NCBI GenBank assembly: GCA_964434885.1
Contig: CAYSWQ010000005.1
Span: forward strand, 1-55,510
Direction of reading: 5' to 3'
DNA length: 55,510 nucleotides
Source of the DNA: an uncultured Methanosarcinales archaeon
GTDB lineage: Archaea > Nanobdellota > Nanobdellia > Woesearchaeales > GW2011-AR9
Program-made: the position numbers and the translations under genes
Notes under the pieces: model-generated
Told to the model about the DNA's origin: nothing
The model's input: the letters and a program-made list of their open reading frames with translations, nothing else
The model's database searches: none
Part shown: in pieces, positions 11,951 through 30,976 of the stretch
Numbering within the stretch: the first letter of the stretch is position 1
Layout of the letters: the number at the start of each line of letters is the position of its first letter

Positions 11951-13020
11951 TTATTTTTAAGAATTTTCGAATAAATATTTTGATATCTTTTTGAAATTAT
12001 TTCCCAATCAAACATTTCTGCTTTTCTTCTTGCATTTTTTCCTAATTTTGCTCTTAGTTTTTTGGATTTAATTTTTTCTAACGCATTTTCTAAGTCATTT
12101 AAATTGTTTGGTTTAATCATCAAGCAATCATTCTCATTTTTAAATACAATTTTATTATTTCCTACATTCGTAATGATGCAAGGAATACCACATGCCATTG
12201 CTTCTAAGACAACCACTGGAAAACCTTCAATTAAGGATGGCAAAATAAAGACCTCGTGGGATTGGTAGATTCCGGGTAAGTTTTTGTTTTTTATTTCTCC
12301 TTTAAAGAAAATTTTTCTTTTAGCTTTTTTAATTAATTTTCTTTTGATTGGGCCATCACCAACAAGTGTTAAGGTAAATTCTTCATGTTTATTTACCACA
12401 TCAACGAGTAAATCAAAACCTTTTATTTTTTCTAATCTACCAACTGACAATAATTTAATCTGTTTTTTATTTTTTATTTTATTTTTTATTGGTTTAAATA
12501 AAGAAGTATCAATGCCGTTGGGAACATATTTAACATGGTTAGTGCTGAAATTAATTAAACTTGTTTTATCAACAACACTAATTTTATCAATTAAACTAAA
12601 TCGTATTAACATTTTGTCTAGTATTCTTTTAAAATAATTGATTTCTTTTTTATTGAATGTTGTTCCATGTAATGTACAAATCAATGGAATATTTAATAAT
12701 TTTGAAGATAAAGATATGGCAAAAGCAAGATCGATGGAGTGAACATGAATTATTTTTGGTTGAATTTTTTTTAAAATATAAAAAGATTTAATAAATAATA
12801 GAAAAAGAGACATAATTCTTTTAATTGAGATATTATCTAAATCTTTTGATTTGGCTTTCATTCCAAATTTTAAAATATTTTTACTTTTTGTTTGGCCACA
12901 ATTTGATGTTAGTACAAACACAGAATTTTTTTTTGATTGTATTTTAACTAAATTACTTACAACTGAAGCATCCCCTCCAATTAAAGGAGGGAATTTTTTG
13001 GTAACATGGAGAATTTTCAT
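11947..13020 (-). CDS. Glycosyltransferase family 4
   Basis: MKILHVTKKFPPLIGG N-terminus and EGFPVVVLEAMACGIPCI (E-x7-E region). Confidence 0.85.
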   Translation of the reverse strand: MKILHVTKKFPPLIGGDASVVSNLVKIQSKKNSVFVLTSNCGQTKSKNILKFGMKAKSKDLDNISIKRIMSLFLLFIKSFYILKKIQPKIIHVHSIDLAFAISLSSKLLNIPLICTLHGTTFNKKEINYFKRILDKMLIRFSLIDKISVVDKTSLINFSTNHVKYVPNGIDTSLFKPIKNKIKNKKQIKLLSVGRLEKIKGFDLLVDVVNKHEEFTLTLVGDGPIKRKLIKKAKRKIFFKGEIKNKNLPGIYQSHEVFILPSLIEGFPVVVLEAMACGIPCIITNVGNNKIVFKNENDCLMIKPNNLNDLENALEKIKSKKLRAKLGKNARRKAEMFDWEIISKRYQNIYSKILKNN

Positions 13021-15217: not shown

Positions 15218-15223
15218 TAGAAA

Positions 15224-15907
15224 TTAACCTACTACTCTTTTCTTAAAAAGATGAAACAGATTTCTAAAACCATCTTTAAAAGCGTTTAATTTTACTTCCC
15301 CCACTCTTTCACTATAATAAATTGGCTCTTCCACAGATTTAAAACCATTAGACATTGCCTCAATTTTCAATTCTTGAGAAAAAGGCATTCCTGAAGATTT
15401 TAAATTCAAGTGATTTAACACTTTTTTTTTAAAAATCCACATTCCAGATTGAGAATCTTGAATTTTTACTCCAAATAATAAATTGGTAAAAAAAGTTAAA
15501 ACATTATTGCCAAACTTATTCCTTCCACTCATTGCATTTTTATGCATTTTAGCAAATCTATTAGTAGTCATAAAATCAATTTTTTGATTTAATAACTTTT
15601 TAACTAATTTAGGGATGTCTTGCATAGGGTAGGTTAAATCAGCATCCCCTGTGGCAATAATATCTCCAGAAGCATTAGCAAAACCTATTTTATAGGCGTT
15701 ACCATAACCACGATCAGGTTGTACAATTACTTTGGCACCTCTTTTTTCTGCAATTTGTTTGGTTTTATCAACACTTCCATTATCAATAACTAGAATTTCA
15801 GTTTGAAATCCCAATACATTCAATTCAGAAATAGGTACAGCATCAATAACTTTACCAATAGCCTTTTCTTCGTTGAGTGCAGGGATTACAATACTGATTT
15901 TTTTCAT
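15224..15907 (-). CDS. Glycosyltransferase family 2, dolichyl-phosphate glycosyltransferase-like
   Basis: ISIVIPALNEE, DNGSVDKT and GDADLTYP motifs (DxD). Confidence 0.85.
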   Translation of the reverse strand: MKKISIVIPALNEEKAIGKVIDAVPISELNVLGFQTEILVIDNGSVDKTKQIAEKRGAKVIVQPDRGYGNAYKIGFANASGDIIATGDADLTYPMQDIPKLVKKLLNQKIDFMTTNRFAKMHKNAMSGRNKFGNNVLTFFTNLLFGVKIQDSQSGMWIFKKKVLNHLNLKSSGMPFSQELKIEAMSNGFKSVEEPIYYSERVGEVKLNAFKDGFRNLFHLFKKRVVG

Positions 15908-15922
15908 AGTTATTCAAACGAA

Positions 15923-16834
15923 TCACCTACGCATTAAAACCACTAGTCCCAAAATGATTGCTAAAACAACTAAAATAACCAAAGCGATTGGTAAAGCTGT
16001 TTTTAACAATGAGGAAGCATTGTTTGTTTGCTTTGTAATTGGTGTAGTAGCTAATACTTGAGTGTTAATGGTGCTGGATGCAACAGATGTAGTTAATAAA
16101 GCTTTTCCTTTTACTGTAAATGGAATAGTTTTAACAGTGGTGCTATCTCCATCAAAGTAAAGAACTTTTAATCGAGCAACATAATTGTCTGTCTTTGCAT
16201 CACTAGGGATTCTTAATAAGCCATCAAATTCAACAGAGTCACCAGCTTCAACATTGGTGAAATATTTAGCTGTAGAAAGTTTTAATTGAGGAACTTCTAA
16301 AGTAACTTTCATCCAATCTTGTTCTTTCTGACCCATGTTTTTTACTAAAGATTTAACTTGTAAAAAACCACCAGCATCAACAGCAGTTGATTGTGATACT
16401 GAACTATCTTTGATAGTCATTAAGTTTCTTTTAGCAACAATATGGTATGGAACATAACATGTTTTGCTTAATGAGTTTTTATCAGTAATTTGAAATCTCA
16501 TATGGTATTTTCCAGGTTCCATGTTAGCTGGTAAGTTTAAAGATAATTTTTTGATGTGTGTGGTATCTTTGTCCATGTCAAATAAACCAGTTTTAGCTTC
16601 AATTTTTTTGTGATCATATCCACTAAAAGACATTTTAACTTGAACATCTTTTAAATTTGTTTTAGAACTCATTTCAATGTGTCCACCAAAAGACTGTCCT
16701 CGGTCAATTGCTTCGTAACCGATTGGTGTTTCTCCATAACACTTCAAATTAACAACATCAACATCTGCAGCGTGAACGAAGTTCATCATTGCGACAGCCA
16801 TCACCATCATAATTAACATAAATATTTTCTTCAT
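15923..16834 (-). CDS. Secreted, C-terminally TM-anchored surface protein (S-layer-like/CARDB-like; paralogue of 26819..28078)
   Basis: Signal peptide MKKIFMLIMMVMAVAMMNFVHA and C-terminal TM LPIALVILVVLAIILGLVVLMRR. The block TGLFDMDKDTTHIKKLSLNLPANMEPGKYHMRFQITDKNS aligns with TSLFDLDAGDSRWISLSLSLPKNLDKDLYLLRIWVTDKNS. Confidence 0.7.
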   Translation of the reverse strand: MKKIFMLIMMVMAVAMMNFVHAADVDVVNLKCYGETPIGYEAIDRGQSFGGHIEMSSKTNLKDVQVKMSFSGYDHKKIEAKTGLFDMDKDTTHIKKLSLNLPANMEPGKYHMRFQITDKNSLSKTCYVPYHIVAKRNLMTIKDSSVSQSTAVDAGGFLQVKSLVKNMGQKEQDWMKVTLEVPQLKLSTAKYFTNVEAGDSVEFDGLLRIPSDAKTDNYVARLKVLYFDGDSTTVKTIPFTVKGKALLTTSVASSTINTQVLATTPITKQTNNASSLLKTALPIALVILVVLAIILGLVVLMRR

Positions 16835-18953: not shown

Positions 18954-18982
18954 TCCGTTACTACTGGATGTTAGCAATTATT

Positions 18983-19000
18983 GCGAAACCTTTATATATA
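18983..19000 (+). promoter_or_regulatory. BRE/TATA promoter (GCGAAACCTTTATATATA)
   Basis: Strong TATA about 60 nt upstream of ATG 19060. It is the only such element ahead of the three tightly spaced genes 19060-26661. Confidence 0.5.
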
Positions 19001-19059
19001 TGTGGTTACTTTTGGGTAGTGTTATATATTAGTAGGTGTTAGATGGTGGAAAATTTAAA

Positions 19060-21573
19060 ATGTCTACTGATAATGATGGAAATGGTTCTGATGGTTCTGA
19101 TATGGATACTTATGTGAATGAACTTTGGGACCAAGCTGCAGAAGCTGATGAATTACCTGGAGAAAAGACCATGGTAATGTCAATGCAACATATTGCAGAA
19201 GATGAAAGTTCTGAAGCAGTTGGAGCTATTTCTACCGATGATAAACCAGAACCAGAATTATTTAAAGAGAGTTCTGTTCAAGTTGATCAAGAAGCATTAA
19301 AAGAACCAGAAGTTGTTTCTATGACTCCAGAAGAACTTGAAAAGCCAGGTTTTTGGGCTGGATTATATGCTCGATTAAATCAACCAGTGTTTAATGGTAA
19401 AGAAGAATCAGATCCAGAAATTCCAATTGAGGTAGAAGAACCAGTGGAAAAACCAATAATTCCTGCGTCAAAACCAGAACCTGTTTTGCTTGAAGAGAAA
19501 GTAGAAGAGACAGATGCTTTAGCAACTACTTTAGAATTTGAAAGAAAAGAGCCTGGTTTTTTGGGTCGATTGTATCAGGCAGCCAAGATTTTTTTTAGTG
19601 GAGAAGAAGAACTTCAAGTTGAACCAAAAGAATTACTGGCGGAAAATCCCGCTTATGAAGAAATGGAATTGATCGATAGATTATCTTATGATTTAACAAA
19701 TGAATTTTTTCCTTTTCCTGGAAGTATGGAAAGACCAGCTGTTTTTGATGATTTGGATGAAGCAAAAATGGCACTATTGGATTTTGTTAGTGCAGAAGGA
19801 TATAGGAAATTGGAAGATATTTTACCAAAATCAGATAGGGAAGATCAGAAATTAATGTTTTTGAATTGTGCTTATAATTTATTGGAAAATGATTATGTTC
19901 GTTTAGTAAAAACGAAAGCAGACTCAGAAAAAGCAAGACTTATTTTGGAAAGCAAAATTGTTGCATTAAGGGGAGACTTGAGTCAAGCGAAAGAAGACAT
20001 AGATAGTTTACGAGAAGTTGGCGAAGATTATAATAGAGATAATGAAAATTTTAAACAATATAATGATGAATTAGAAGGAAAATTGGATGAAGCAGAAGCT
20101 GAAGCAAGCCAATTAAAAATTAATTTAGAGAGTGTAAATAAACAACTTGGTGAAACTCAAGGGTTGTTATATCGGATTACAGGAGAAAGAGATTCTTTGC
20201 AAAAGAAGTTGAGAAGATATATTGATATCATGGGAGACCATACTGCTGAAGAGTTTAGAGATAGGACTTTGGAAGCAGAAGGAGAACACCAAGTGGAAAA
20301 ATTACAAAGACAAAATTTAGAAGGAGAATTCGAAGATTATAAATTAGCTGCAGAGCAGAGAGAAGCAGATTTGCAGGCTCGGTTAGATGGTGTTGAAGGA
20401 TTACAATTAGGAATAGAAAGAAGCAAAAAAGAAACTGAAGAACAATTGGTTGCAGTACAGGCTGAATCTAGTTCGGCACAAGAAAGAATTAGTAAATTAC
20501 AAGCTTCTTTAACTCGAGTTAATGATACTTTAGCAGAATATAGGGTGAATTTGGGAGGAGATGAACCAGTTGAAATTAAAGCTTATATTGAAAGTTTGGA
20601 AAATGCTAAAGAGGAAGCTGAAGAAAAATTAACTACTGCAACTGAATCATTGAAATTACTAAAAGATAGATTGGGAAGATATCATACTTTAACTGCAGAA
20701 CAAATTGACACAGAATTTGATGGTATTAAAGAGACTAATGAAAGATTGGAAGAAAGTGTTTTTGATTCTAAAGAAGAATTGGCTGAGATTGTTGAAGAAT
20801 TGAAAGGAGTTAAACAAACTTTAGATGAGAGAACTGCCGAATTAGAAAGAGTTCAAAAAGAATTTAAAACTTATAAATTAGTAGATCCAGAAGCACAAGA
20901 GCATGCAGATAATTTATTTGCATTGGAAGAACAGAATGAATTATTGTCTGCTCAGAATGCAGAATTAGTGGTTGATTCTCATCCAAGAAGAGGAAATAAT
21001 GTTTTAATGGTTGCAGCAGGATTTTTGACTGCTACTTGTTTGGGGGCAGCTGTTTATTTGGGAATTCAGAATGCAGATTTATCTAGTGAGTTAGTTAATG
21101 CTAGAAATCAAAATACAAGTTTAACTCAAACTTATCAGAAAGAGAAAACTCAAATGGTTAGTGGCTATGCACAGAAGAGTAAAGCAGCAGAACAGAAACA
21201 TTCTCAATTTGCTGCTCGAGCCAACAAACTTAATGCTTCTTTGCAAAAGAAATTAGAAGAATCAAAATCAGAATATCAGGATTTAGCTGTGGAATCAGTG
21301 GCTATGGAGAATTATGCATCAATCTTAAAAGCAGATAATTTAGGTGAATTCCAAAAAGTATTGAGAGATTATACTCGAAGTGAAGGGGGAGTAAAAATGA
21401 CTTGTTCTACTCGAGCAGAATGTGCAGAAGATTTGTATGGTCAAATGGTGGATGGATACACACCTGCAGAAGGAGATCTGAAAACAAAAGAAAAATTTGT
21501 GAAGCTGTTTGAAGAAACTTATGCTAAAACACTTCCTGAAAAATTTGGGAAGAAAATCTCTATTGGGATGTAA
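19060..21573 (+). CDS. Giant acidic coiled-coil protein with a single TM segment (unknown function)
   Basis: The track ORF starts at GTG 19036, and in-frame ATG 19060 follows GGTGG. It has an acidic Pro/Glu-rich N-terminus, two PGF(W/L)xxLY motifs, about 350 aa of heptad-like sequence, a TM (NNVLMVAAGFLTATCLGAAVYLGIQ, nt about 20998-21066) and a roughly 165-aa tail. Confidence 0.7.
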   Translation: MSTDNDGNGSDGSDMDTYVNELWDQAAEADELPGEKTMVMSMQHIAEDESSEAVGAISTDDKPEPELFKESSVQVDQEALKEPEVVSMTPEELEKPGFWAGLYARLNQPVFNGKEESDPEIPIEVEEPVEKPIIPASKPEPVLLEEKVEETDALATTLEFERKEPGFLGRLYQAAKIFFSGEEELQVEPKELLAENPAYEEMELIDRLSYDLTNEFFPFPGSMERPAVFDDLDEAKMALLDFVSAEGYRKLEDILPKSDREDQKLMFLNCAYNLLENDYVRLVKTKADSEKARLILESKIVALRGDLSQAKEDIDSLREVGEDYNRDNENFKQYNDELEGKLDEAEAEASQLKINLESVNKQLGETQGLLYRITGERDSLQKKLRRYIDIMGDHTAEEFRDRTLEAEGEHQVEKLQRQNLEGEFEDYKLAAEQREADLQARLDGVEGLQLGIERSKKETEEQLVAVQAESSSAQERISKLQASLTRVNDTLAEYRVNLGGDEPVEIKAYIESLENAKEEAEEKLTTATESLKLLKDRLGRYHTLTAEQIDTEFDGIKETNERLEESVFDSKEELAEIVEELKGVKQTLDERTAELERVQKEFKTYKLVDPEAQEHADNLFALEEQNELLSAQNAELVVDSHPRRGNNVLMVAAGFLTATCLGAAVYLGIQNADLSSELVNARNQNTSLTQTYQKEKTQMVSGYAQKSKAAEQKHSQFAARANKLNASLQKKLEESKSEYQDLAVESVAMENYASILKADNLGEFQKVLRDYTRSEGGVKMTCSTRAECAEDLYGQMVDGYTPAEGDLKTKEKFVKLFEETYAKTLPEKFGKKISIGM

Positions 21574-21607
21574 TAATAAATAAAAAATAAAGCGAGGAAA
21601 AAACAAA

Positions 21608-23668
21608 ATGAAAAAATTAGAAAACATGTTGAGAAGTGCAGTTTTTGCTGGAAGTATGGCATTAGCTGGATTAGGATTATATTCAACTGCAGTAGCAGGA
21701 GAACCTGGACCAAAATCAGATGCAACTGTTGTAGATGCAAGAGGACCAGATGCTGGTGCTCCTAAATTAAAATATAAATTAGATGCTGGTGTTCCAGATA
21801 CTGCTTCACCTGATAGTGCAAAACCAGACATGTATGGTGGTAAAAAAGACAAGGGTGCTCCAATTGTTAAAAAAGATATGTCTTGGAATTGGAATTTTTC
21901 TGATAGTGGAAGTAATGCAGAAGCAACTCCAGATGCTAGTGTTAGGAAAGATATGGGAACTAAGAAAGATTTAGGTTCTCAGAAAGATATGGGAACTAAA
22001 GATATGGGCCCTAAAAAAGATGTAGGTTCTGACAAAGGTAAAGGAAAAACAGCTCCTAAAACACCACCTAAAAAAGTCCCTAAAAAAACTCCTAAAGTAG
22101 AATATAAAGGGAAATTGGAAATTAAATGTGAGAAAGGAGAATACAAAGTTCCTACTAACAGAGGAGATTTACCAGGGAAGTGTGTTATTGATAATAAACC
22201 AAAATACAAACCTTCTAAGTTAGGAACTAAAACCATCTGTGGAACTGATGTTGTTAAGAAAGTTAAATTCAAAACCGGAAAAAAAGCAACTTTTAAGGAA
22301 TTGAATTTGAAAGGTTACACTTGTATGCACAAGCATGTAGTTAAGTCTTTTGGATTTGACTTTTTGAATGGAAACCAATACACTAACAAATTAGAAGAAA
22401 TGTGTGGACCGCAATATCAATGTGCTAAGAATGGTTTAGCTCAGAAAGCAAAAGGATTGAGTAAAGCTAAGCAGTTAGAAAATATGTTAGAACCATGTAA
22501 AGATGAGTACAAGGTTTTGAAAACAAAAACTGAAGCAGCTCAAAAGAGTTACACTGGTTTACAAGCAGCAATTAGGAATTTAGATGGTGCTGTAGCTAAA
22601 CAAAAAGCACAAGTGAAAGCAAATTATCCTAAAGCTTTAGAAGCAGTGAAGAAAGGAGTACCTCAAGTTGGTGATTCGGAAGCTGTTAATAAAGCTAAAG
22701 CGTTTTTTGATGCGTCCAAAAAAGATTACCAAGCGAAAGAGAAAGATTTGAAAGCTTATTTGGGAGAATTAGCAAAGACTGGTTGTGTGACTGAAGATCT
22801 AGGACATTTGAATAAGAAGATTCAAAATCAGTTTACTCAAGTCTACAATGACTTAAATGATTTGGGAGGCGAAGTGGATGCAAACACAGAAGGTCGTTTA
22901 GCTAATAAAAAGAAACTTGGAGAATTAGGACCAAAAGTTAGAAAGAATATAACTAACATTGGAAACAATGCAGATAACATTGGTGTTAACTCAGATGATA
23001 TTGAAGGTCTTAAAAAGAAAGATTTACAACATGATGCAGCAATAAAGAAAGGTACAGCTGCAAGAAAAGCCTTAGAAGAAAAAGTAAGCAAAGGACATGG
23101 CGTTGAAGTTGGAATTGGACCAGTTTATATGAAAGATGCAGCTAATGCAGAAACTGGTGACAATGGTTCTCGTTATGGAGTTATGGCTCAAGTGGTTAAG
23201 AAATTTGGACACAAAGCTAAAACTTATCTTGGCGGTTTCTTAATGGTTACTGGTGGTTCTGGAAGTAAAACCACAGATGCAAATAAACCTTCTTACCAAG
23301 GTACTGTAACTAATGAATCTGGTAACACTAGTTTCACTGCAGGAGTTGTAGCTGGAAAAGACGATCTTTTACATAATGGTAAAAATGTTGATTTCGGTTT
23401 AGAAGGAGCATTAGGTGGAGGAGTTGATCTTGAAACAAAAAACACCAAAGTTAAAGGACAACATTATGTAAATGGTGTTAAACAAGGAAAAGCTTTGGAG
23501 TATGATAAAGATTCAACTACAGAAAGACCTGGTAATTTTGTTGGTATGATTTGCCCAACAGTTACTTTCAATAATAAATTGAAACTAAGTACCTGTGCTA
23601 TTGGTAAATTAAATACTAAAGGAAAAGTTTCACCAGGAGGATCATTACTATTAAAATATGCTTTTTAG
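21608..23668 (+). CDS. Secreted Lys-rich protein with a central coiled coil and a C-terminal OMP-like beta-barrel domain (unknown function)
   Basis: GAGGA SD and a signal peptide. Also KDMGTK-type low-complexity repeats and a PKKxPKK tract. The last ~190 aa alternate hydrophobic and polar residues and end in LLLKYAF*. Confidence 0.7.
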   Translation: MKKLENMLRSAVFAGSMALAGLGLYSTAVAGEPGPKSDATVVDARGPDAGAPKLKYKLDAGVPDTASPDSAKPDMYGGKKDKGAPIVKKDMSWNWNFSDSGSNAEATPDASVRKDMGTKKDLGSQKDMGTKDMGPKKDVGSDKGKGKTAPKTPPKKVPKKTPKVEYKGKLEIKCEKGEYKVPTNRGDLPGKCVIDNKPKYKPSKLGTKTICGTDVVKKVKFKTGKKATFKELNLKGYTCMHKHVVKSFGFDFLNGNQYTNKLEEMCGPQYQCAKNGLAQKAKGLSKAKQLENMLEPCKDEYKVLKTKTEAAQKSYTGLQAAIRNLDGAVAKQKAQVKANYPKALEAVKKGVPQVGDSEAVNKAKAFFDASKKDYQAKEKDLKAYLGELAKTGCVTEDLGHLNKKIQNQFTQVYNDLNDLGGEVDANTEGRLANKKKLGELGPKVRKNITNIGNNADNIGVNSDDIEGLKKKDLQHDAAIKKGTAARKALEEKVSKGHGVEVGIGPVYMKDAANAETGDNGSRYGVMAQVVKKFGHKAKTYLGGFLMVTGGSGSKTTDANKPSYQGTVTNESGNTSFTAGVVAGKDDLLHNGKNVDFGLEGALGGGVDLETKNTKVKGQHYVNGVKQGKALEYDKDSTTERPGNFVGMICPTVTFNNKLKLSTCAIGKLNTKGKVSPGGSLLLKYAF

Positions 23669-23694
23669 AAAAGCATACGAGGTAAACTAAAAAA

Positions 23695-26661
23695 ATGAAA
23701 ATCTTAAAAATATTCACGGTGATTTTTTTAGTTTTAGCTTTGACTACCAGTGGATTGGCTCACCTTGATTGGTTAAAGGTAGATAATACCTTGACTCCTC
23801 TTTTGGCTTGGGACAATGGTAAAAAAACTAAAACTATTACTGATGGAGAATCAGCTACCTTTTCAACAGGGCGGTTTATTTCTCTTACTGACTCAACTGT
23901 AAGTTTAAAGGCATATTTGAATGATGCTCTTACTGGAAAAACAATCAATCAGATTTATTCTGAAGCAGTTGATGTAACAAAAGACGCTCAAGAAAGAAAG
24001 ATTACTATTAAACAGAGTAATTATTTGAAGCCAGGTAAATATGTAGTAGTAATTAATCTACAAACAAAAAATGAGCAATCATCTGATGTTAGCTTAACTT
24101 TAGAAGTTAAAGAAAAGAGTAACTCTGTTACTCCAGTAAATCCGATTGATCCAAATGGACCTAAAGTTAATCCTGGACCTTTTAAGAAAGTCATTAAACC
24201 TTATGCTTTTATGTCTTGGTCTGGTCAAGATATTAATCAGAAAAGTAAAACTGTGATTGTGGGAGAATCTGCAAAAGCAGTATATGTTGCTTCTAGTAAT
24301 GAAGGATATGTGATTGCCAAATTGGAATTAGTACAAAATGGTAAAGTTATCAAAAAATTGGTTGAGAAATCAGCAACTGATAATTACTTAGCTTATGTTA
24401 CTGGTTCTGAAACACTAAATTTAGGTGTTGGTAAATATGAATTGCGATTAGTAGCAGTAGATAAAGACAAAGATTATTCTGTGTATTCTTTATATTTGGA
24501 TGTTAATCAAAAGACAGCAACCTATAAACCAAAGATTCCTCAGAAGCAACCAGGACCTTTCAAAAAAGTTCCTCAAGGGAAAGCAGCACCTTCAATTACT
24601 TTGTCATCTAACAATGTGGTTGTGAAAGAAAATGAGAAAACTAGCATCACAGTTACTGCAACTGATGCAGATAGTAAAAACTTGAAGTTAAGAGCTTACT
24701 TTAAATACACTATTTTTGGTTGGACACTTCCAATTGAATTTAAGTCGTTATGGGGAGCTACTTTTGTAGATAACGGAGATAATACTGGAACTTACACATT
24801 TGCTCCAGATTATAACTTTGTAATCCATAAGTTAACTAGCAAGGTTACTGATTTATATGTGGCTGCTTCAGATGGAGAAACTACTGATGCAGAAGCTAAA
24901 GTGACTGTAACAGTATTGGATGTTAATCGAAAGCCTACTTTTGTTAATTTCGTTAAAGACAGAACCATTGAAGTTGGTAAAGAATTGAAATTTAAAGTAA
25001 CTGGAACAGATGCAGATAAAGAAGATATTAAATCTTTGAAATTCGCAGCTGGTCCAGCTTCATTAGGTTTTAAATTTACTGAAAAAGGCGAATTTACTTG
25101 GACTCCAACTAAAACTGGAGAATATGCAGTATTCTTCCAGATTACTGATCAAATGGGTTTGAGTAGTGATTTGGCTACATTGAAAATCAATGTTAAGGCA
25201 GCTCCAGTTAAACCAAATACTCCTCCAGTAATGGATCCGATTAAGGATAAAACTGGATATGTGGGAGAGAAAGTTAGCTTTGGAGTTAAAGCCACTGATG
25301 CAGATAATGATAAGTTAACATTTAACAAGTTTTACTTGCCTACTGGATCTAAGTTTACCGATAATGGAGATGGAACAGGAACATTTACTTGGACTCCAAC
25401 CAAAGTTGGAACTTATAAAATGGCTTTCCAAGCAGATGATGGAAAAGCAGAAAGTAAGGCAGAGTTTGTTACTTTGACTATTAAGGAAAAATCAACTACA
25501 AATAACAACCCAGTAATCGAATCAATTGGAGACAAACAAGTTGAAGTTGGTAAACAATTAACTATCAAAGTTAAAGCAACCGATAAAGATGGAGATAAGT
25601 TAACTTGGGAAGTTAATCCAAAAGACTTTACTGGACACAAGTTTGTTGACAATGGAGACGGAACTGGAGTATTCACCTGGACTCCAACTAAAGTAGGAAC
25701 TTATTCTGCTTTATTCGGAGTATCTGATGGAATGGGGGGAGAAGACAAGGAAAATATTGGTATCGAAGTTAATGCTAAACCAGTTACTCCTACAAATAAC
25801 AACCCAGTAATCGAATCAATTGGAGACAAACAAGTTGAAGTTGGTAAACAATTAACTATCAAAGTTAAAGCAACCGATAAAGATGGAGATAAGTTAACTT
25901 GGGAAGTTAATCCAAAAGACTTTACTGGACACAAGTTTGTTGACAATGGAGACGGAACTGGAGTATTCACCTGGACTCCAACTAAAGTAGGAACTTATTC
26001 TGCTTTATTCGGAGTATCTGATGGTTTTGGTGGAGGAGAAGCTAAAGAGACAATTAAGATCAACGTAATTAGATCTAATTCAGCACCAAAGATTGTTTCT
26101 TCACCTTTGACTACTGCTAACTTGGGAAAAGAATACACTTACACTGTTAAAGTAGTTGATGCTGAGAATGATCCAGTTAAATATGAAGTATTGTCTGGAC
26201 CAGCAGGAATGAGTTTTAAGAACAATGTTTTATCTTGGACACCAACAAATTCGGGAAAAGCATGTGCTTTGATTCAAGTAACTGAGACAAACACAGCAAG
26301 TAAATTGACAGATAGTCAAGGTTTCTGTGTTGGAACTCAAGAAAAAACTGCGGAAGTAAAATTCGTTACTGCTAACTTATGGTCTGAATATCTCTTACCT
26401 GGAGAATACTTGAGAATCAATGTAGGGGTAAACAATAACGGGGACAAAGATTTCGAAGATTTGAAAGTTACTGGTGTTGTTTACAGTTTAGGACTAATGA
26501 GAACTACTGGTCATTTTGACTTAGATAGTGGAAAGACTTGGCAGAAACAACTAGTAATGGAAATTCCAGCAGATACTCCTGTTGGAGATTATTATGTAAG
26601 AATCACTGTTAGTGGAGATGAGATTAAACACACAACTCATCGGGTTTTTACCATCTACTAA
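23695..26661 (+). CDS. Large secreted adhesin-like protein with about 6 cadherin-like/He_PIG-type Ig repeats and CARDB-like end domains
   Basis: Signal peptide. Two PGPFKKV linkers. Repeats carry (V/K)TATDAD.., DNGDGTG(T/V)FTWTPTK.G.Y motifs. No C-terminal TM. Confidence 0.8.
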   Translation: MKILKIFTVIFLVLALTTSGLAHLDWLKVDNTLTPLLAWDNGKKTKTITDGESATFSTGRFISLTDSTVSLKAYLNDALTGKTINQIYSEAVDVTKDAQERKITIKQSNYLKPGKYVVVINLQTKNEQSSDVSLTLEVKEKSNSVTPVNPIDPNGPKVNPGPFKKVIKPYAFMSWSGQDINQKSKTVIVGESAKAVYVASSNEGYVIAKLELVQNGKVIKKLVEKSATDNYLAYVTGSETLNLGVGKYELRLVAVDKDKDYSVYSLYLDVNQKTATYKPKIPQKQPGPFKKVPQGKAAPSITLSSNNVVVKENEKTSITVTATDADSKNLKLRAYFKYTIFGWTLPIEFKSLWGATFVDNGDNTGTYTFAPDYNFVIHKLTSKVTDLYVAASDGETTDAEAKVTVTVLDVNRKPTFVNFVKDRTIEVGKELKFKVTGTDADKEDIKSLKFAAGPASLGFKFTEKGEFTWTPTKTGEYAVFFQITDQMGLSSDLATLKINVKAAPVKPNTPPVMDPIKDKTGYVGEKVSFGVKATDADNDKLTFNKFYLPTGSKFTDNGDGTGTFTWTPTKVGTYKMAFQADDGKAESKAEFVTLTIKEKSTTNNNPVIESIGDKQVEVGKQLTIKVKATDKDGDKLTWEVNPKDFTGHKFVDNGDGTGVFTWTPTKVGTYSALFGVSDGMGGEDKENIGIEVNAKPVTPTNNNPVIESIGDKQVEVGKQLTIKVKATDKDGDKLTWEVNPKDFTGHKFVDNGDGTGVFTWTPTKVGTYSALFGVSDGFGGGEAKETIKINVIRSNSAPKIVSSPLTTANLGKEYTYTVKVVDAENDPVKYEVLSGPAGMSFKNNVLSWTPTNSGKACALIQVTETNTASKLTDSQGFCVGTQEKTAEVKFVTANLWSEYLLPGEYLRINVGVNNNGDKDFEDLKVTGVVYSLGLMRTTGHFDLDSGKTWQKQLVMEIPADTPVGDYYVRITVSGDEIKHTTHRVFTIY
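25498..26024 (+). repeat. Perfect 233-bp direct duplication (25498-25730 and 25792-26024; period 294 bp = 98 codons) inside the adhesin gene
   Basis: The two copies read identically base for base by eye and encode TNNNPVIESIGDKQVEVGKQLTIKVKATDKDGDKLTWEVNPKDFTGHKFVDNGDGTGVFTWTPTKVGTYSALFGVSDG twice. Confidence 0.9.
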
Positions 26662-26665
26662 AAAA

Positions 26666-26703
26666 GGAGTAATTAGTGTAATATAACTATTACACAATAC
26701 TCC
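26666..26703 (+). terminator. Strong hairpin just after the adhesin stop (possible terminator or processing site)
   Basis: GGAGTA..GTGTAATA-TAAC-TATTACAC..TACTCC (6 + 8 bp with a small internal loop). Confidence 0.4.
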
Positions 26704-26736
26704 TAATGTGTTCCTACTCAATAATGCTAAAACAAA

Positions 26737-26776
26737 CGAAACATTTATATATGACCTCGAGTATAGGGTCATATAT
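26737..26776 (+). promoter_or_regulatory. BRE/TATA promoter (CGAAACATTTATATA) overlapped by a 10-bp inverted repeat ATATATGACC-N10-GGTCATATAT
   Basis: TATA at 26744-26751. Palindrome arms at 26747-26756 and 26767-26776. About 70 nt upstream of ATG 26819. Confidence 0.5.
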
Positions 26777-26818
26777 TAAAACTAATACTACAAAAACCGA
26801 ATTCGGAGGATAAGAAAA

Positions 26819-28078
26819 ATGAAAAAAGTTTTGATGTTATTGGCTTTGCTTATCGTTAGCTTAGTAACAATCGGTATGGTAAATGCAGCAACTTTACCTG
26901 TAAGTATCGAAGAATTAAAAGTTGATGGTAATAAATTATCAAAGTCAAGTGCAAAAGAAAACCTTTATGTTGAAGAAGGTAAATCCTTGAAAGTACAAAT
27001 CAAGGTTAAAAATACTGGTACTACTACTGTTAAAGATATGGAAGTGGAAGCCGCTTTGAAAGGATCTAAATATAGTGTGGATGCTCAAACATCTTTATTT
27101 GATTTAGATGCTGGGGATTCCCGATGGATTTCTTTAAGTTTAAGTTTGCCTAAAAATCTAGACAAAGATCTATATTTGTTAAGAATTTGGGTAACTGACA
27201 AAAACAGTGATGAAGTTAAAGAAACATACAACTTGAAAGTTAACCCAATCAGAAATGGTGTTGGCGTTAAAGATGTTGTTTTTTCACCTGGAACTACTGT
27301 GAAAGCAGGTCATTCTTTGATTGCAGATGTCTTAGTTGATAATTTTGGAGCTAAAGACGAAAAAGATGTCAAAGTTACCTTAAGTATTCCTGCTTTAGGA
27401 GTTAGTACTGCAGATTATGTTAGTAAAATCGAAAACGATGACAAAAAAGTTAGTGAACCAATGTTCTTAAGATTGCCTTTATGTGCAAAAGCTGGAACTT
27501 ACGACGCTAAAGTTACTGTTGCTTACGATGATGCTGACAAAACTGTTACTAAAACTTACAAATTGAATGTTTTGGCTAACGACCGATGTACTACAAGTGC
27601 AGCTACAGGAGGAAAATTAGTTCTGACTGTTGGTCCTGAAACCCAAAATGTTGTAGCTAATAAACAAGCAGTTTACCCAATTGCTTTGACCAATGCTGGT
27701 ACAGAAACTAAAACTTACGTTTTAGAATTAACTGCTGGTAGCTGGGCTACTTCCAAGTTATCTGATAACTTAGTTGTTTTAGCTCCAGGTAAAACCAAAG
27801 TTGCTTACGCTTACTTGACTCCAAGTAAAGATGTAACTGCTGGTCAAAAAGTAGCTACTTTATCAGTTAAATCTGGTAACAATGTCTTGAAAACTGTTTA
27901 CTTGAAAGCTAACGTTGTTAAAGAGAGTAAATCATTGAGCTTAAGAAATGGCTTAGAAATCGCTTTAGTGGTTTTGGTTGTTATCTTAGTTATCGTTGGT
28001 TTAATCTTGGGCTTTAGTAGACTAAGAAAAGACGACGAAGAAGAAGTTTTAGACGAAGAAGGTAAAACTTATTACTAA
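26819..28078 (+). CDS. Secreted, C-terminally TM-anchored S-layer-like protein (paralogue of 15923..16834)
   Basis: GGAGGA SD, signal peptide, three beta-rich CARDB-like segments, TM LEIALVVLVVILVIVGLILGF, acidic tail. Confidence 0.75.
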   Translation: MKKVLMLLALLIVSLVTIGMVNAATLPVSIEELKVDGNKLSKSSAKENLYVEEGKSLKVQIKVKNTGTTTVKDMEVEAALKGSKYSVDAQTSLFDLDAGDSRWISLSLSLPKNLDKDLYLLRIWVTDKNSDEVKETYNLKVNPIRNGVGVKDVVFSPGTTVKAGHSLIADVLVDNFGAKDEKDVKVTLSIPALGVSTADYVSKIENDDKKVSEPMFLRLPLCAKAGTYDAKVTVAYDDADKTVTKTYKLNVLANDRCTTSAATGGKLVLTVGPETQNVVANKQAVYPIALTNAGTETKTYVLELTAGSWATSKLSDNLVVLAPGKTKVAYAYLTPSKDVTAGQKVATLSVKSGNNVLKTVYLKANVVKESKSLSLRNGLEIALVVLVVILVIVGLILGFSRLRKDDEEEVLDEEGKTYY

Positions 28079-29329: not shown

Positions 29330-30976
29330 ATGATGAATGTTCTTGGTGATGTTATGACTATGCAAGGTTTTGAAAGAAAAGATGTAGATGCTATTCTGGA
29401 TGTGGCAGATGAAGTTAAATTAGCAATTCATGATCCGGAAGGATTTGGTAAAAAGTTTAAAAAAAAATATGGGAGAAGAGTTTCTAAATTGTTAAAAGAC
29501 ACATTGACTATTGACACTTTTTTTGAGAATAGTACAAGAACTAAGTTTTCTTTTGAAATAGCTGTAATGAAAGCAGGAGGAAAGATTACTGGTTTTCCTT
29601 CCGGAAAATATACTTCTTTAGCAAAGGGAGAAAGTTATGCCGATACCGAAGATATGTTTAATCTTTATGGTTCAGATGCAATAGTGATGAGGAGTAAGAT
29701 AGAAGGGATGCCAAGATGGATTAAAGATTTTTTAGTTCAAGGTTACGATCATATTTTAGGTCATCACCAAGAATCTGGAATGCCTTACATATATAATGTT
29801 CCTTTAATTCTCAATGGGGGAGATGGAAAAAATCAACACCCCACCCAGTGTTTGTTGGATCTATTTACATTAAGAGAAATTGCTCGTTCACAAGGAAAAG
29901 AATTAGAAGGAATGAAAGTAGCATTGCTTAATGATATTGCTCATGGAAGAACAATTTCTTCACTTATTTCGGTTGCACATCTTTATGATTTAGAATTACA
30001 TTTTGCTTCACCGAAACCAGATCGGTTTGGGTTACAAAAACATCATCGTGAAGATTTGATGCGAAGAAGAGTTCTTTTTTACGATCATGGAACTGATTTT
30101 TTAGAAGCAATGAATGCAGCTTTTGCAGCTTATCAATCTCGCCCACAAAAAGAAAGAGTTGGAGCGGGAGAAGATTTGATATCGATGATTAACAAAGGCC
30201 AAATAAATTTAAAGATGATGGAAGAACTAGGAGATTCGGCACCTTATTTACTCCATCCTCGGCCAGTCGATTCAGAAGTTTTTCAAGAAATTCATCCAGA
30301 TTTGAACTTTCATCCTAAGAATAAATCACGAGCTCAATCAGCCAATGGAGTTTATGTGAGAATTGCTTTGGAGGCGTTAGGTTTGGGAAAGATCCAAGTT
30401 GATCATGATTTTTCAGGAAGTTCAAGTGATTTTGAAGGAGTAAATATCCAGAAATTGAAGAAAAATTCTGAACGAAAAAAAAGAGATGAGAATTCTCGAT
30501 CTGGTTATATAGAAGGAAGTGGAATTGTTATTGATCATATAGAAGAAGGATTAGGTAGGAGATTGTGTGGGGTTTTGGGTTTAGAAGGTTTAGGAGTACC
30601 AAAAGTAGTTTCTGATTATATGGAAGTAGCAAATGGTAGAAAATCAAGAAAAGATATGATTAAAATTCATTGTAATTACAAACTTTCAGATAGACAACTC
30701 GAAGCGATTGCTTTAATTTCTCCGGATGCAACAATCAGTAAGATTAAAAACGGTCGAATCAAGAAAAAATTTAGGCCTGTGTCTGGGAATTATGTTGAAG
30801 ATTTGGTTGTGTGTGGTAATGATGCTTGTGTTTCTCATGTTGCTAAAGAACCAACAACTCATAAACACCTACTTACTGGAGATTTAGATGAACGAGTAGT
30901 TAGTTGTTATTATTGTGGTAGGGCAGAAGGAGTAAAAGAGATTTATGACCGAAAAGGGTTCAAATATGTTAAATAA
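29330..30976 (+). CDS. pyrB: Aspartate carbamoyltransferase with the catalytic (PyrB) and regulatory (PyrI) chains fused in one polypeptide
   Basis: PyrB part: NSTRTKFSFE, GESYADT..DAIVMR, GGDGKNQHPTQCLLDLFTLRE, HGRT. After a charged linker comes the PyrI part: GIVIDHIEEG, KDMIKI, and the Zn domain CGNDACVSH...CYYCG. Confidence 0.85.
   Translation: MMNVLGDVMTMQGFERKDVDAILDVADEVKLAIHDPEGFGKKFKKKYGRRVSKLLKDTLTIDTFFENSTRTKFSFEIAVMKAGGKITGFPSGKYTSLAKGESYADTEDMFNLYGSDAIVMRSKIEGMPRWIKDFLVQGYDHILGHHQESGMPYIYNVPLILNGGDGKNQHPTQCLLDLFTLREIARSQGKELEGMKVALLNDIAHGRTISSLISVAHLYDLELHFASPKPDRFGLQKHHREDLMRRRVLFYDHGTDFLEAMNAAFAAYQSRPQKERVGAGEDLISMINKGQINLKMMEELGDSAPYLLHPRPVDSEVFQEIHPDLNFHPKNKSRAQSANGVYVRIALEALGLGKIQVDHDFSGSSSDFEGVNIQKLKKNSERKKRDENSRSGYIEGSGIVIDHIEEGLGRRLCGVLGLEGLGVPKVVSDYMEVANGRKSRKDMIKIHCNYKLSDRQLEAIALISPDATISKIKNGRIKKKFRPVSGNYVEDLVVCGNDACVSHVAKEPTTHKHLLTGDLDERVVSCYYCGRAEGVKEIYDRKGFKYVK

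What the first reader, a model, noticed from the sequence alone, without database searches (positions are those of the whole stretch)
18983..28078. Candidate undescribed envelope / cell-contact module: TM-anchored coiled-coil giant, secreted OMP-like protein, multi-Ig adhesin, and an S-layer-like paralogue
Seen: one strong BRE/TATA (18983-19000) precedes three + strand genes (19060-21573, 21608-23668, 23695-26661). Each gene has a GAGG-type SD, and they are separated by only 34 and 26 nt. A hairpin, a second promoter and an S-layer-like gene (26819-28078) follow. None of the first three proteins shows an enzyme motif I recognise. Their features are: a cytoplasm-to-membrane coiled-coil protein with one TM; a signal-peptide protein with a Lys-rich tract, coiled coil and C-terminal beta-barrel-like domain; and a 988-aa secreted protein built of cadherin-like/He_PIG repeats with no membrane anchor of its own. 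The block is visibly less AT-rich than the neighbouring glycan locus. Inference: a secreted adhesin, a putative membrane-inserting barrel and a TM-anchored coiled-coil scaffold sit in one operon of an otherwise streamlined archaeal genome. That combination would fit an attachment or host-interaction apparatus of an episymbiont. I cannot name any described system with this gene trio.
Basis: partly seen in the sequence, partly recalled or inferred. Interest (0 to 1): 0.8.

Follow-up and report, generated by a model that had tools for sequence, protein, structure and literature searches.

The report
Conserved archaeal surface-protein gene block
A small marine archaeon carries four adjacent cell-envelope genes; two are ordinary surface proteins and two form a fast-evolving pair with no recognisable relatives, so this is a reasonable but untested candidate for cell-contact machinery and not a demonstrated new apparatus.

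Summary
Four co-directional genes sit where described: P1 19060-21573, P2 21608-23668, P3 23695-26661 and P4 26819-28078. A BRE/TATA lies upstream of P1, the gaps are 34 and 26 nt, each gene has an SD-like motif, and P4 has its own promoter.

P3 is an ordinary tandem-95/Big_9/cadherin-like repeat protein. Its C-terminal CARDB-like domain is related to P4. P4 is a CARDB/NEW3 S-layer-like protein with a C-terminal TM.

P1 has an acidic N-terminus, a long coiled coil, one TM and a 170-aa ectodomain. P2 has a signal peptide, a 6-Cys domain, a helical region and a Gly-rich beta domain. Neither matches any Pfam, NCBIfam, PDB, PHROGs or PADLOC family.

New here: the whole block, flanks and promoters included, is collinear in a second species from Tara station 37 (0.1-0.22 µm fraction), and P1-P2 adjacency recurs in a third contig. 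Between the two species the flanks are 51-86% identical, P4 86% and P3 56%. P1 and P2 are only 26-30% identical and partly unalignable. Their orphan status therefore reflects rapid divergence.

The "OMP-like barrel" is not supported: no OMP family matched, the terminal ...YAF is not conserved, and the AlphaFold models are unusable (pLDDT 33-40). GC3 is native and nothing points to a virus or plasmid.

Most likely this is a native envelope operon in which P1 tethers secreted P2. A host-attachment role is only inferred.

The parts
18957..19000 (+). P1 promoter: upstream box GTTACTACT (18957-18965), then BRE/TATA GCGAAACC-TTTATATA (18983-18998).
   Evidence: Sequence read. The motif is rare in the window. 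The non-coding region is about 85% identical to the Tara orthologous locus. The box is shared with the P4 promoter, but the 9-mer alone occurs 9 times in the window.
19060..21573 (+). P1, 837 aa (alternative GTG start at 19036). Predicted N-in/C-out single-pass membrane protein. Layout: acidic, Pro-rich N-terminal region (aa 1-200); conserved helical domain (aa 225-290, PA.FDDL...AL..FV...KL.F...AYNL); long coiled coil (aa 290-640); RR + TM (aa 646-668); ectodomain (aa 669-837).
   Evidence: No family above a curated cutoff. The Tara orthologue P0011 (991 aa) is 26% identical over aa 116-424 only.
19342..19584 (+). Two copies of an aromatic/basic motif inside the acidic region of P1: KPGFWAGLYARL (aa 95-106, nt 19342-19377) and EPGFLGRLYQAA (aa 164-175, nt 19549-19584).
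   Evidence: One copy (KPGLIGRIWKRA) is conserved in the Tara orthologue.
20995..21063 (+). Transmembrane helix of P1 (aa 646-668), preceded by HPRRGNN.
   Evidence: The Tara orthologue has KKANRRTR followed by a TM 182 aa from its C-terminus, against 171 aa here.
21064..21570 (+). P1 ectodomain (aa 669-837): a short helical segment plus a small C-terminal domain with CSTRAEC.
   Evidence: The last 70 aa are 65% identical to the fragment upstream of the P2-like gene in contig L005. It is not alignable to the Tara orthologue.
21608..23668 (+). P2, 686 aa, secreted. Layout: signal peptide aa 1-30 (AVA|G); variable Lys/Asp/Gly-rich low-complexity tract aa 31-162; 6-Cys domain aa 163-276; helical region aa 284-494; Gly-rich beta-rich domain aa 495-686.
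   Evidence: An exhaustive HMMER search of 1.84 billion representatives found only 2 partial relatives. The Tara orthologue P0005 (534 aa) is 30% and 28% identical in two blocks.
22094..22435 (+). Conserved Cys-rich domain of P2 (aa 163-276; C174, C192, C211, C239, C266, C272).
   Evidence: Alignment A1 and A4. No Pfam or PDB match.
23090..23665 (+). C-terminal beta-rich, Gly-rich domain of P2 (aa 495-686; conserved GLEG.LGG and NGVK.G motifs). Its fold is unresolved.
   Evidence: A6. No Pfam or PDB match even at E<=10. AlphaFold pLDDT 33. The fold search was meaningless.
23695..26661 (+). P3, 988 aa, secreted. Layout: signal peptide; two N-terminal beta-rich domains (aa 28-275); six Ig-like repeats (aa 298-889, repeats 4 and 5 93% identical); C-terminal CARDB-like domain (aa 890-988). 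No membrane anchor.
   Evidence: Pfam Big_9 112 bits, He_PIG 86 and Cadherin_5 70, all above cutoff. NCBIfam tandem-95 repeat 95.4 bits against a cutoff of 90. Repeat map. The C-terminal domain is related to P4 domains 1 and 2. 56% identical to the Tara orthologue.
26665..26704 (+). Hairpin after the P3 stop codon. Not followed by a T-run.
   Evidence: dG -16.2, z -4.5. The 5' arm is absent in the Tara locus.
26710..26818 (+). P4 promoter and leader: box GTTCCTACT (26710-26718), CGAAACA-TTTATATA (26737-26751), palindrome 26747-26776, a conserved leader of about 55 nt, and GGAGG at 26804-26808.
   Evidence: About 89% identical to the Tara locus, and nearly identical from the BRE to the ATG.
26819..28078 (+). 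P4, 419 aa: signal peptide, CARDB/NEW3-type beta-sandwich domains, C-terminal TM (aa about 380-402) and an acidic cytoplasmic tail. S-layer-like.
   Evidence: Pfam CARDB 28.3 bits (cutoff 22.7) and NPCBM_assoc 24.6 (cutoff 24.4). NCBIfam 'PACE-CTERM-PROT putative S-layer protein' E=2e-26, 92.8 bits, below the 110 cutoff. 86% identical to the Tara orthologue.
15923..16834 (-). Paralogue of P4 (303 aa), next to the glycan locus. It lies outside the finding's coordinates but belongs to the same envelope island.
   Evidence: tblastn 32% identity, E=2e-28. Same NCBIfam model at E=8e-11. Conserved in position in the Tara contig L006, 72% identical.

Best explanation
This is a native, lineage-restricted cell-envelope gene block of a small, AT-rich marine archaeon, probably a DPANN (Pacearchaeota/Woesearchaeota-like) organism.

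P1, P2 and P3 are most likely transcribed together from one strong promoter. P4 has its own strong promoter and a conserved leader.

P1 is a single-pass membrane protein. About 645 residues lie in the cytoplasm: an acidic disordered region, a small conserved helical domain and a long coiled coil. About 170 residues lie outside.

P2 is exported by a cleavable signal peptide and has no anchor of its own. I infer that it is held at the surface by the P1 ectodomain, so that P1 and P2 together form a membrane-spanning, largely helical tether or stalk. The Cys-rich and beta-rich domains of P2 would then be displayed outward.

P3 is a conventional multi-Ig (tandem-95/cadherin-like) adhesin. I infer that its C-terminal CARDB-like domain, which is homologous to P4's domains, docks it onto the P4-type surface layer.

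Shown: the gene arrangement, the predicted topologies, the family status of each protein, conservation of the block in a second species, and the fast divergence of P1 and P2.

Inferred: co-transcription, the P1-P2 physical interaction, P3 docking on P4, and any role in adhesion or cell-cell contact.
For: Arrangement: ORFs, gaps, SD motifs and promoters are confirmed.

Topologies: P1 has RR + TM and no signal peptide. P2, P3 and P4 have signal peptides, with the AXA site conserved in all three P2-family members. P4 has a C-terminal TM.

Conservation of the block: P1-P2 adjacency with a GAGG-bearing spacer of 17-39 nt recurs in three populations with different GC content (window; L005; the L004/L007 lineage). 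The full order permease-P1-P2-P3-P4-GGR-PyrBI is conserved in the Tara lineage. In the same comparison the neighbouring glycan cassette has exchanged genes.

Regulatory DNA: the P1 and P4 promoters are 85-89% identical between the species.

Links between parts: the P3 C-terminal domain is homologous to P4 domains. P4 is 86% identical between species, as expected of a constrained lattice or structural protein.

Native origin: GC3 matches the rest of the window. There are no hits in PHROGs, phage records, plasmid records or IMG/VR.

Organism: archaeal markers in the window are aIF-2, Trm1, RLI and a class Ic GluRS. The orthologues come from the 0.1-0.22 µm fraction.
Against: No expression, localisation or interaction data exist.

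The flanks are collinear as well. At least two of the three populations are related species, so conserved order is weaker evidence for coupling than it would be across unrelated genomes.

The P1 ectodomain has diverged beyond recognition between the two species. This fits a co-evolving interface only if P2 changed with it, and that cannot be tested with 2-3 sequences.

The window's best candidate for the main S-layer glycoprotein is another gene, ORF 47365-49680 with a PGF-pre-PGF domain. P4 may therefore not form the lattice.

Neither AlphaFold model is usable, so no structural argument is available.

The DPANN or episymbiont status of the organism is inferred, not shown.
Confidence: 0.45

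Rival explanations
1. The block is an envelope gene neighbourhood and not a machine. The four genes are independent, fast-evolving or ordinary surface and cytoskeletal proteins. They sit together because the region from the glycan locus to the S-layer-like genes is an envelope island that related species inherited collinearly. P1 could be a cytoplasmic scaffold or division-related coiled-coil protein with no link to P2-P4.
For: Collinearity extends well beyond the block. DPANN genomes are rich in unannotated proteins (PMC10936187 and PMC11329633). P3 and P4 belong to common families. Coiled-coil and disordered proteins drift quickly without any special selection (P1 is 26% identical).
Against: The spacers are very short (17-39 nt), lack a promoter and carry a conserved SD in three populations. 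The topologies are complementary: an anchored protein with an ectodomain sits next to an anchorless secreted protein. The block stayed intact while adjacent glycan genes were replaced.
Confidence: 0.3
2. Host-contact or membrane-insertion device. P2's Gly-rich beta domain is a lipid-inserting barrel or pore (OMP-like or toxin-like). It is presented on a helical stalk anchored by P1 and targets the membrane of a host cell. P3 provides adhesion.
For: The P2 C-terminus has several amphipathic period-2 segments and ends ...LLLKYAF. P1 and P2 diverge fastest in the locus, as expected of proteins in an arms race. The source is an ultra-small cell fraction. The attachment structures of cultivated DPANN have no assigned proteins (PMC11420986 and PMC11329633).
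Against: No OMP, autotransporter, YadA-anchor or pore-forming family matched even at E<=10. PDB sequence and profile searches found nothing. The terminal aromatic is not conserved, because the orthologue ends ...NLSVPLK. AlphaFold pLDDT was 33-40 and the fold search was meaningless. No insertion machinery is encoded in the window. There is no evidence that the organism has a host.
Confidence: 0.1
3. Foreign cargo. The block is a horizontally acquired island, of viral, plasmid or bacterial origin, that encodes infection or defence functions.
For: Bulk GC is slightly higher than the surroundings. There are weak PADLOC hits to JetC, LmuB and DruC. Bacterial-type genes such as Lgt occur elsewhere in the window.
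Against: GC3 is indistinguishable from the rest of the window. PHROGs gave no hits. The PADLOC hits score 14-19 bits on the coiled coil only. Phage records, plasmid records and IMG/VR gave no match. There is no integrase and no adjacent tRNA. The block occupies the same chromosomal position between the same housekeeping genes in a second species.
Confidence: 0.03

Closest known systems
Archaeal S-layer with membrane-anchored stalk (Sulfolobales SlaA/SlaB; Staphylothermus tetrabrachion) - recalled from general knowledge; PMC6911244 appeared in the results but I did not read it
   Same: A coiled-coil stalk component is combined with beta-sandwich surface domains to hold a surface layer at a set distance from the membrane. 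The genes are adjacent and strongly expressed.
   Different: In SlaB the coiled coil and the C-terminal TM are in one secreted protein. Here the TM protein (P1) keeps most of its coiled coil in the cytoplasm, and the secreted helical protein (P2) has no TM. There is no sequence similarity to any solved structure.
Tandem-95 / Big_9 / cadherin-like repeat surface adhesins (NCBIfam NF012211; Pfam PF17963, PF05345, PF17892)
   Same: P3 passes the curated thresholds of these models. It has the usual signal peptide, a string of Ig-like repeats and a recent repeat duplication.
   Different: P3 ends in a CARDB-like domain homologous to the neighbouring S-layer-like protein. It lacks a sorting signal, a TM or a lipobox.
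NCBIfam NF033506 'PACE-CTERM-PROT putative S-layer protein'; CARDB/NEW3 beta-sandwich surface proteins
   Same: P4 and its paralogue align to this model (E=2e-26 and 8e-11). P4 has the expected layout: signal peptide, beta-sandwich domains and a C-terminal TM.
   Different: Both score below the curated cutoff (92.8 and 41.3 bits against 110). P4 covers only the C-terminal 60% of the model.
Eukaryotic LINC complex (KASH + SUN) - analogy only, from general knowledge
   Same: One partner has a large cytoplasmic coiled-coil region, a single TM near the C-terminus and a short exoplasmic tail. The other partner has a coiled coil followed by a C-terminal beta-rich domain of about 190 aa in the extracytoplasmic space.
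   Different: No Sad1_UNC or KASH match was found. P2 has a cleavable signal peptide and not an N-terminal TM. Archaea have no second membrane for it to bridge. This is an architectural analogy only.
Mycoplasma attachment-organelle proteins (HMW1/2/3, P65, P200) - analogy only (PMC8191905 appeared in the results; not read in detail)
   Same: The organism is a streamlined small cell. P1 combines a giant coiled coil with an acidic, Pro-rich region and short aromatic/Gly-rich motifs, and it is encoded next to surface adhesins.
   Different: No EAGR-box or HMW family match was found. The only traces are sub-threshold coiled-coil hits to mycoplasma helix-rich models (18 and 15 bits against cutoffs of 270 and 125). 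The domain of life and the envelope are different.

Membership tests
Bacterial outer-membrane beta-barrel / autotransporter anchor (for the P2 C-terminus) | Match to an OMP, autotransporter or YadA-anchor profile | tested here: not met
   Pfam scan of aa 491-686 alone at E<=10 gave 0 families. The full-length Pfam and NCBIfam scans gave only coiled-coil noise.
Bacterial outer-membrane beta-barrel / autotransporter anchor (for the P2 C-terminus) | Conserved C-terminal beta-signal that ends in an aromatic residue | tested here: not met
   The window protein ends ...LLLKYAF. The orthologue P0005 ends ...NLSVPLK.
Bacterial outer-membrane beta-barrel / autotransporter anchor (for the P2 C-terminus) | Closed barrel of amphipathic beta-strands | tested here: inconclusive
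   Period-2 segments are present, but the AlphaFold models have pLDDT 40 and 33. The Foldseek search found no hit with E<=0.001.
Bacterial outer-membrane beta-barrel / autotransporter anchor (for the P2 C-terminus) | An outer membrane and Omp85/BAM insertion machinery in the organism | not testable with these tools
   Only 55 kb of the genome is available, and nothing of this kind lies in the window.
Tandem-95 / Big_9 / cadherin-like repeat surface protein (P3) | Score above the curated thresholds of the repeat models, with several repeats | tested here: met
   NF012211 95.4 bits (cutoff 90; 4 stretches). PF17963 112 bits (5 stretches). PF05345 85.6 bits. PF17892 69.9 bits. Six repeats were mapped.
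Tandem-95 / Big_9 / cadherin-like repeat surface protein (P3) | Secretion signal | tested here: met
   N-terminal hydrophobic segment aa 1-25, KD 2.16, and no other TM.
NCBIfam NF033506 putative S-layer protein (P4) | Score at or above the curated cutoff (110 bits) | tested here: not met
   92.8 bits, E=2.1e-26, covering model positions 250-612 of 627. P4 is related to the family but below its threshold.
Archaeal S-layer protein in the functional sense (P4) | Signal peptide, beta-sandwich domains, C-terminal membrane anchor, strong promoter and high conservation | tested here: met
   (86% identity between species).
Archaeal S-layer protein in the functional sense (P4) | Forms the 2-D lattice and is the most abundant envelope protein | not testable with these tools
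   This needs proteomics or cryo-ET. The rival candidate ORF 47365-49680 has a PGF-pre-PGF domain and 41 sequons.
SMC / Rad50 / JetC-type coiled-coil ATPases (P1) | Walker A/B ATPase head domains flanking the coiled coil | tested here: not met
   Hits of 14-28 bits fall on the coiled coil only, against cutoffs of 567-1087 bits. No head domains were matched.
LINC complex SUN/KASH (P1+P2) | SUN (Sad1_UNC) domain and KASH peptide | tested here: not met
   No Pfam match in the full-length or domain-only scans.
A conserved P1-P2(-P3-P4) gene module (a family proposed here) | The same gene order recurs in independent genomes | tested here: met
   The Tara lineage has contigs L006-L011, and L005 keeps the P1-P2 adjacency. 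Caveat: the flanks are collinear too. No relatives turned up in GTDB species representatives, JGI metagenomes or IMG/VR.

The most novel reading that the evidence does not exclude
P1 and P2 form a previously undescribed trans-envelope coupling device of marine DPANN archaea. A cytoplasmic coiled-coil scaffold (P1) is linked through the membrane to an extracellular helical stalk. The stalk's Cys-rich and Gly-rich beta domains (P2) contact or insert into a partner cell's envelope, and P3 acts as the adhesin. On this reading the pair would be the first molecular candidates for the attachment structures that cryo-ET has shown in cultivated DPANN without identifying their proteins. Their rapid divergence would reflect host-specific co-evolution.
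Probability: 0.12. Interest if true: 0.8.

Novelty: new variant of a known kind. Interest (0 to 1): 0.42.

Why it matters
The proteins that DPANN archaea use to hold on to other cells are unknown. The cryo-ET studies I consulted describe attachment organelles and nanotubes but leave their molecular identity open (PMC11420986, PMC11329633).

A conserved, strongly promoted operon that pairs a membrane-spanning coiled-coil protein with an anchorless secreted partner and a multi-Ig adhesin is a sensible place to look.

A practical lesson follows from the comparison. P1 and P2 are "orphans" among 15 billion proteins because they diverge about 2-3 times faster than their neighbours. Synteny-anchored searching, and not sequence searching, is the way to trace them.

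As it stands, the finding is a well-documented candidate and not a discovery. Two of the four proteins are ordinary, and no function has been shown for the other two.

Tried and rejected
1. Word-indexed searches with full-length P1 and P2 returned only the proteins themselves. The 8000-candidate limit was probably saturated by low-complexity and coiled-coil words.

2. A profile of the P1 tail (A2) returned nothing, not even P1. That search was uninformative and a wasted use of the cap.

3. Collection scans all found nothing:
- GTDB species-representative genomes with the Cys-domain profile and with the GGR anchor.
- JGI metagenomes with the Cys-domain and P1-tail profiles.
- IMG/VR.
The lineage is absent from those collections, or the peptide patterns were too strict.

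4. AlphaFold2 in single-sequence mode failed for full-length P2 (pLDDT 40) and for the P2 C-domain (pLDDT 33). The Foldseek search on the latter was meaningless, with TM<=0.19.

5. PDB searches by sequence and by 2-3-sequence profiles of the P2 beta domain, the P2 Cys domain and the P1 helical domain gave nothing credible. The best was MakB at E=0.035.

6. PHROGs, PADLOC and the phage and plasmid tblastn searches rejected a viral, defence or plasmid origin.

7. Horizontal transfer suggested by base composition was rejected on GC3.

8. The apparent loss of P3 in contig L002 was rejected. It is an assembly artefact: an N-gap and a collapsed repeat.

9. The post-P3 hairpin as a conserved terminator was rejected, because it is not conserved.

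10. A shared upstream box as evidence that P1 and P4 are co-regulated is only weak, because the 9-mer occurs 9 times in the window.

11. Sequence homology between the P1 tail and the Tara upstream ORF was not demonstrable by BLAST or hhalign. Orthology there rests on the N-terminal and central regions, on architecture and on position.

12. Literature searches found no described system with this gene set, no record of the sample accession and no mention of the NCBIfam model name.

Full report
**1. Observation**

Gene callers use a GTG at 19036 for P1.

The sequence GCGAAACC-TTTATATA lies at 18983-18998, 30 nt after the stop of an amino-acid permease gene. The extended motif GAAAC.TTTATATA occurs only three times in the 55.5-kb window, and two of those copies sit in front of P1 and P4.

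The P1-P2 and P2-P3 gaps are 34 and 26 nt. Each carries a GAGG-type motif 8-12 nt before the ATG and no TATA-like motif. All four block genes have an SD-like motif, against 13 of the 39 other large ORFs.

The hairpin after P3 (26665-26704; dG -16.2 kcal/mol, z -4.5) is real. So is a palindrome that overlaps the P4 promoter (26747-26776; z -4.2).

The block's higher bulk GC (0.33-0.36, against 0.23-0.30 in the glycan locus) comes from codon positions 1 and 2. GC3 is 0.17-0.22, against 0.213 +/- 0.042 for the other genes. The block is therefore compositionally native.

**2. The organism**

The window encodes the following:
- archaeal aIF-2 (814 bits, above cutoff), Trm1, RtcA, ABCE1/RLI, a class Ic Glu/Gln-tRNA synthetase, a fused PyrB-PyrI and a GGR-like flavoprotein;
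- a glycan-biosynthesis locus at 8.2-17.7 kb.

Identical or near-identical contigs come from three further metagenome assemblies of one sample series. Orthologues come from Tara Oceans station 37, mesopelagic, mostly the 0.1-0.22 µm fraction.

An AT-rich, ultra-small marine archaeon fits a DPANN lineage. That assignment is an inference.

**3. The four proteins**

*P1*
- It has no signal peptide. It is 15% Glu and has one hydrophobic segment (aa 646-668) preceded by HPRRGNN. This predicts about 645 cytoplasmic and about 170 external residues.
- The N-terminal 200 residues are acidic and Pro-rich. They carry two copies of a PG[FL]..[GR]LY motif.
- Residues 290-640 show heptad periodicity.
- The only family hits are sub-threshold matches on the coiled coil, to SMC, Rad50 and JetC at 14-28 bits.

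*P2*
- It has a signal peptide with an AXA site, and that site is conserved in all three family members.
- Next comes a Lys/Asp/Gly-rich low-complexity tract. The tract is absent from the Tara orthologue and differs in the third lineage.
- The remaining parts are a six-Cys domain (aa 163-276), helices at about aa 229-494 and a Gly-rich beta-rich C-terminal domain.
- No Pfam, NCBIfam or PDB match exists for any part, even at E<=10 on isolated domains.

*P3*
- It passes the curated thresholds of Big_9, He_PIG, Cadherin_5 and the NCBIfam tandem-95 repeat model.
- It has six Ig-like repeats. Repeats 4 and 5 are 93% identical.
- It ends in a domain of about 95 aa that is homologous to the first two domains of P4.

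*P4*
- It is a CARDB/NEW3 beta-sandwich protein with a signal peptide and a C-terminal TM.
- It aligns to NCBIfam 'PACE-CTERM-PROT putative S-layer protein' at E=2e-26, which is below the curated cutoff.
- It has a paralogue at 15923-16834 on the minus strand.

**4. Relatives and synteny**

Word-indexed searches found only self hits. An exhaustive HMMER search of 1.84 billion cluster representatives with P2 found just two partial relatives.

One relative, P0004 on contig L005, lies 39 nt downstream of a gene fragment whose last 69 residues are 65% identical to the C-terminus of P1.

The other, P0003 on contig L004, led through its 90% cluster to full-length proteins. These are a 534-aa P2-like protein (P0005) and a 991-aa P1-like protein (P0011). 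Their contigs L006-L011 show this gene order:

flippase - glycosyltransferases - P4-paralogue - NTP-transferase - permease - P1-like - 17 nt - P2-like - 23 nt - P3-like (995 aa) - P4-like (421 aa) - GGR-like - PyrBI

It comes with a caveat: the flanks are collinear too, so part of the signal is simple relatedness. Within the same comparison the glycan cassette has exchanged genes. A 524-aa ORF faces a non-homologous 571-aa ORF, and two glycosyltransferases are only about 36% identical. The P1-P4 block stayed intact.

Scans of GTDB species representatives, JGI metagenomes and IMG/VR found no further relatives.

**5. Rates of divergence**

Identity between the window and the Tara lineage:

| Protein | Identity |
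|---|---|
| P4 | 86% |
| Permease | 85% |
| Flippase | 80% |
| NTP-transferase | 74% |
| P4 paralogue | 72% |
| GGR-like | 66% |
| P3 | 56% |
| PyrBI | 51% |
| P2 | 30% and 28%, in two blocks |
| P1 | 26%, over aa 116-424 only |

The P1 ectodomain is not alignable at all.

The non-coding P1 promoter and the P4 promoter with its leader are 85-89% identical.

P1 and P2 are the fastest-evolving genes in the locus, and this accounts for their apparent lack of homologues. P3 evolves at an ordinary rate, and P4 is strongly constrained.

Conserved cores of P1:
- the N-terminal MST.ND.GNGS;
- one PG[FL].GR[LI] motif;
- a helical domain, PA.FDDL...AL..FV...KL.F...AYNL.

Conserved cores of P2:
- the Cys-rich domain;
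- two Cys in the helical region;
- motifs of the beta domain (GLEG.LGG, NGVK.G).

Profiles of these cores find nothing credible in the PDB.

**6. The 'OMP-like barrel'**

The C-terminal domain has amphipathic period-2 segments and ends ...KYAF in the window. Four results count against a barrel:
- No OMP, autotransporter or YadA-anchor model matches.
- The orthologue ends ...SVPLK.
- Both AlphaFold models are unusable, with pLDDT 40 and 33.
- The fold search gave no significant hit.

**7. Rivals**

A viral, plasmid, defence or horizontally transferred origin is rejected. The grounds are native GC3, the empty PHROGs, phage, plasmid and IMG/VR searches, noise-level PADLOC hits, and the conserved chromosomal position.

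The main live rival is that this is an inherited envelope neighbourhood of independent genes. The strong host-contact or pore reading remains possible but has no positive evidence.

**8. Mechanism**

I commit to the following, at about 0.45 confidence.
- P1-P2-P3 is one transcription unit.
- P1 spans the membrane and retains secreted P2 through its ectodomain. Together they give a helical tether that links a cytoplasmic coiled-coil scaffold to outward-facing Cys-rich and beta-rich domains.
- P3 is an Ig-repeat adhesin that docks through its CARDB-like domain onto P4-type surface protein.

Shown here:
- the gene arrangement;
- the predicted topologies;
- the family membership of P3;
- the sub-threshold relationship of P4 to its NCBIfam model;
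- conservation of the block;
- the divergence rates.

Inferred:
- co-transcription;
- both protein-protein contacts;
- any adhesion or host-contact role.

**9. Comparison with known systems**

P3 and P4 are new members of known kinds.

P1 and P2 belong to no described family. Architecturally they recall stalk-anchored S-layers (SlaB, tetrabrachion), the KASH/SUN pairing and the coiled-coil proteins of mycoplasma attachment organelles. Each of those membership tests failed or is only an analogy (see the membership table).

The cryo-ET papers on cultivated DPANN describe attachment structures whose proteins are unidentified (PMC11420986 and PMC11329633). There is therefore no described system to assign this block to.

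**10. Verdict**

The feature is real, native and conserved.

Novelty is modest. This is a new variant of the familiar archaeal envelope gene cluster, and it contains one uncharacterised, fast-evolving gene pair. I score interest at 0.42. The block is a good candidate for follow-up by synteny-anchored structure prediction and metatranscriptomics, but nothing shown so far would greatly surprise a specialist.

Noticed in passing
window 47365-49680 (+): A 771-aa ORF with a signal peptide, 41 N-x-S/T sequons (about 20 expected), a PGF-pre-PGF domain (TIGR04213, 87.5 bits against a cutoff of 28), a Thr/Lys-rich linker and a C-terminal TM. It has its own TTTATATA at 47247. It looks like the classic heavily glycosylated archaeal S-layer glycoprotein, and it competes with P4 for that role.
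   Followed up: partly
window 35926-36702 (-): A bacterial-type prolipoprotein diacylglyceryl transferase (Lgt) in an archaeal contig. It passes TIGR00544 (182 bits against a cutoff of 118.9) and Pfam LGT (214 bits). None of P2, P3 or P4 has a lipobox cysteine.
   Followed up: partly
window 44500-44675 (-): The third copy of the strong promoter motif (GAAACATTTATATA, starting at 44661 on the minus strand). About 160 nt without an ORF follow it, including a GC-rich stretch at 44500-44590, before the gene at 44498. This may be a small RNA or a long leader. Rfam gave nothing significant (best E=0.34).
   Followed up: partly
window 25413-25970 (inside P3): A near-identical tandem duplication of one Ig-like repeat (294-nt period, 98% nt and 93% aa identity). 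In a sister assembly of the same population (L002) it is collapsed and N-gapped, so P3 was not called there. This is an assembly artefact and not a real polymorphism.
   Followed up: yes
window 23695-28078 (P3, P4) and Tara orthologues L007:5395-8382, L011:4213-5478: Avoidance of N-glycosylation sequons. P3 has 0 against 9.3 expected (none of 2000 shuffles as low). P4 has 0 in both species (p about 0.02 each). The Tara P3 has 5 against 8.9 expected, so the effect is only partly conserved there. It contrasts with the sequon-rich ORF771.
   Followed up: partly
window 10376-16834 versus L006:1173-7366: Gene replacement inside the glycan locus between the two species. The 524-aa family-less ORF faces a non-homologous 571-aa ORF, the Tara contig has an extra methyltransferase, and two glycosyltransferases are only about 36% identical. 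The flanking flippase (80%) and the P4 paralogue (72%) are conserved.
   Followed up: partly
window 23657-23677: A small hairpin (AUAUGCUUUUUAGAAAAGCAUA) straddles the P2 stop codon just upstream of the P3 SD (dG -6.9, z -2.6). It could influence translational coupling or be chance.
   Followed up: no
window 18957-18965 and 26710-26718; L007 equivalents: Both the P1 and P4 promoters, in both species, carry GTTnCTACT about 18 nt upstream of the CGAAAC-TTTATATAT core, which hints at a shared regulator. The 9-mer alone occurs 9 times in the window (1.3 expected), partly in coding repeats, so the evidence is weak.
   Followed up: partly
window 29330-30976 (+): The aspartate carbamoyltransferase catalytic (PyrB) and regulatory (PyrI) chains are encoded as one 548-aa fusion ORF (Pfam OTCace_N, OTCace and PyrI in a single protein).
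   Followed up: no
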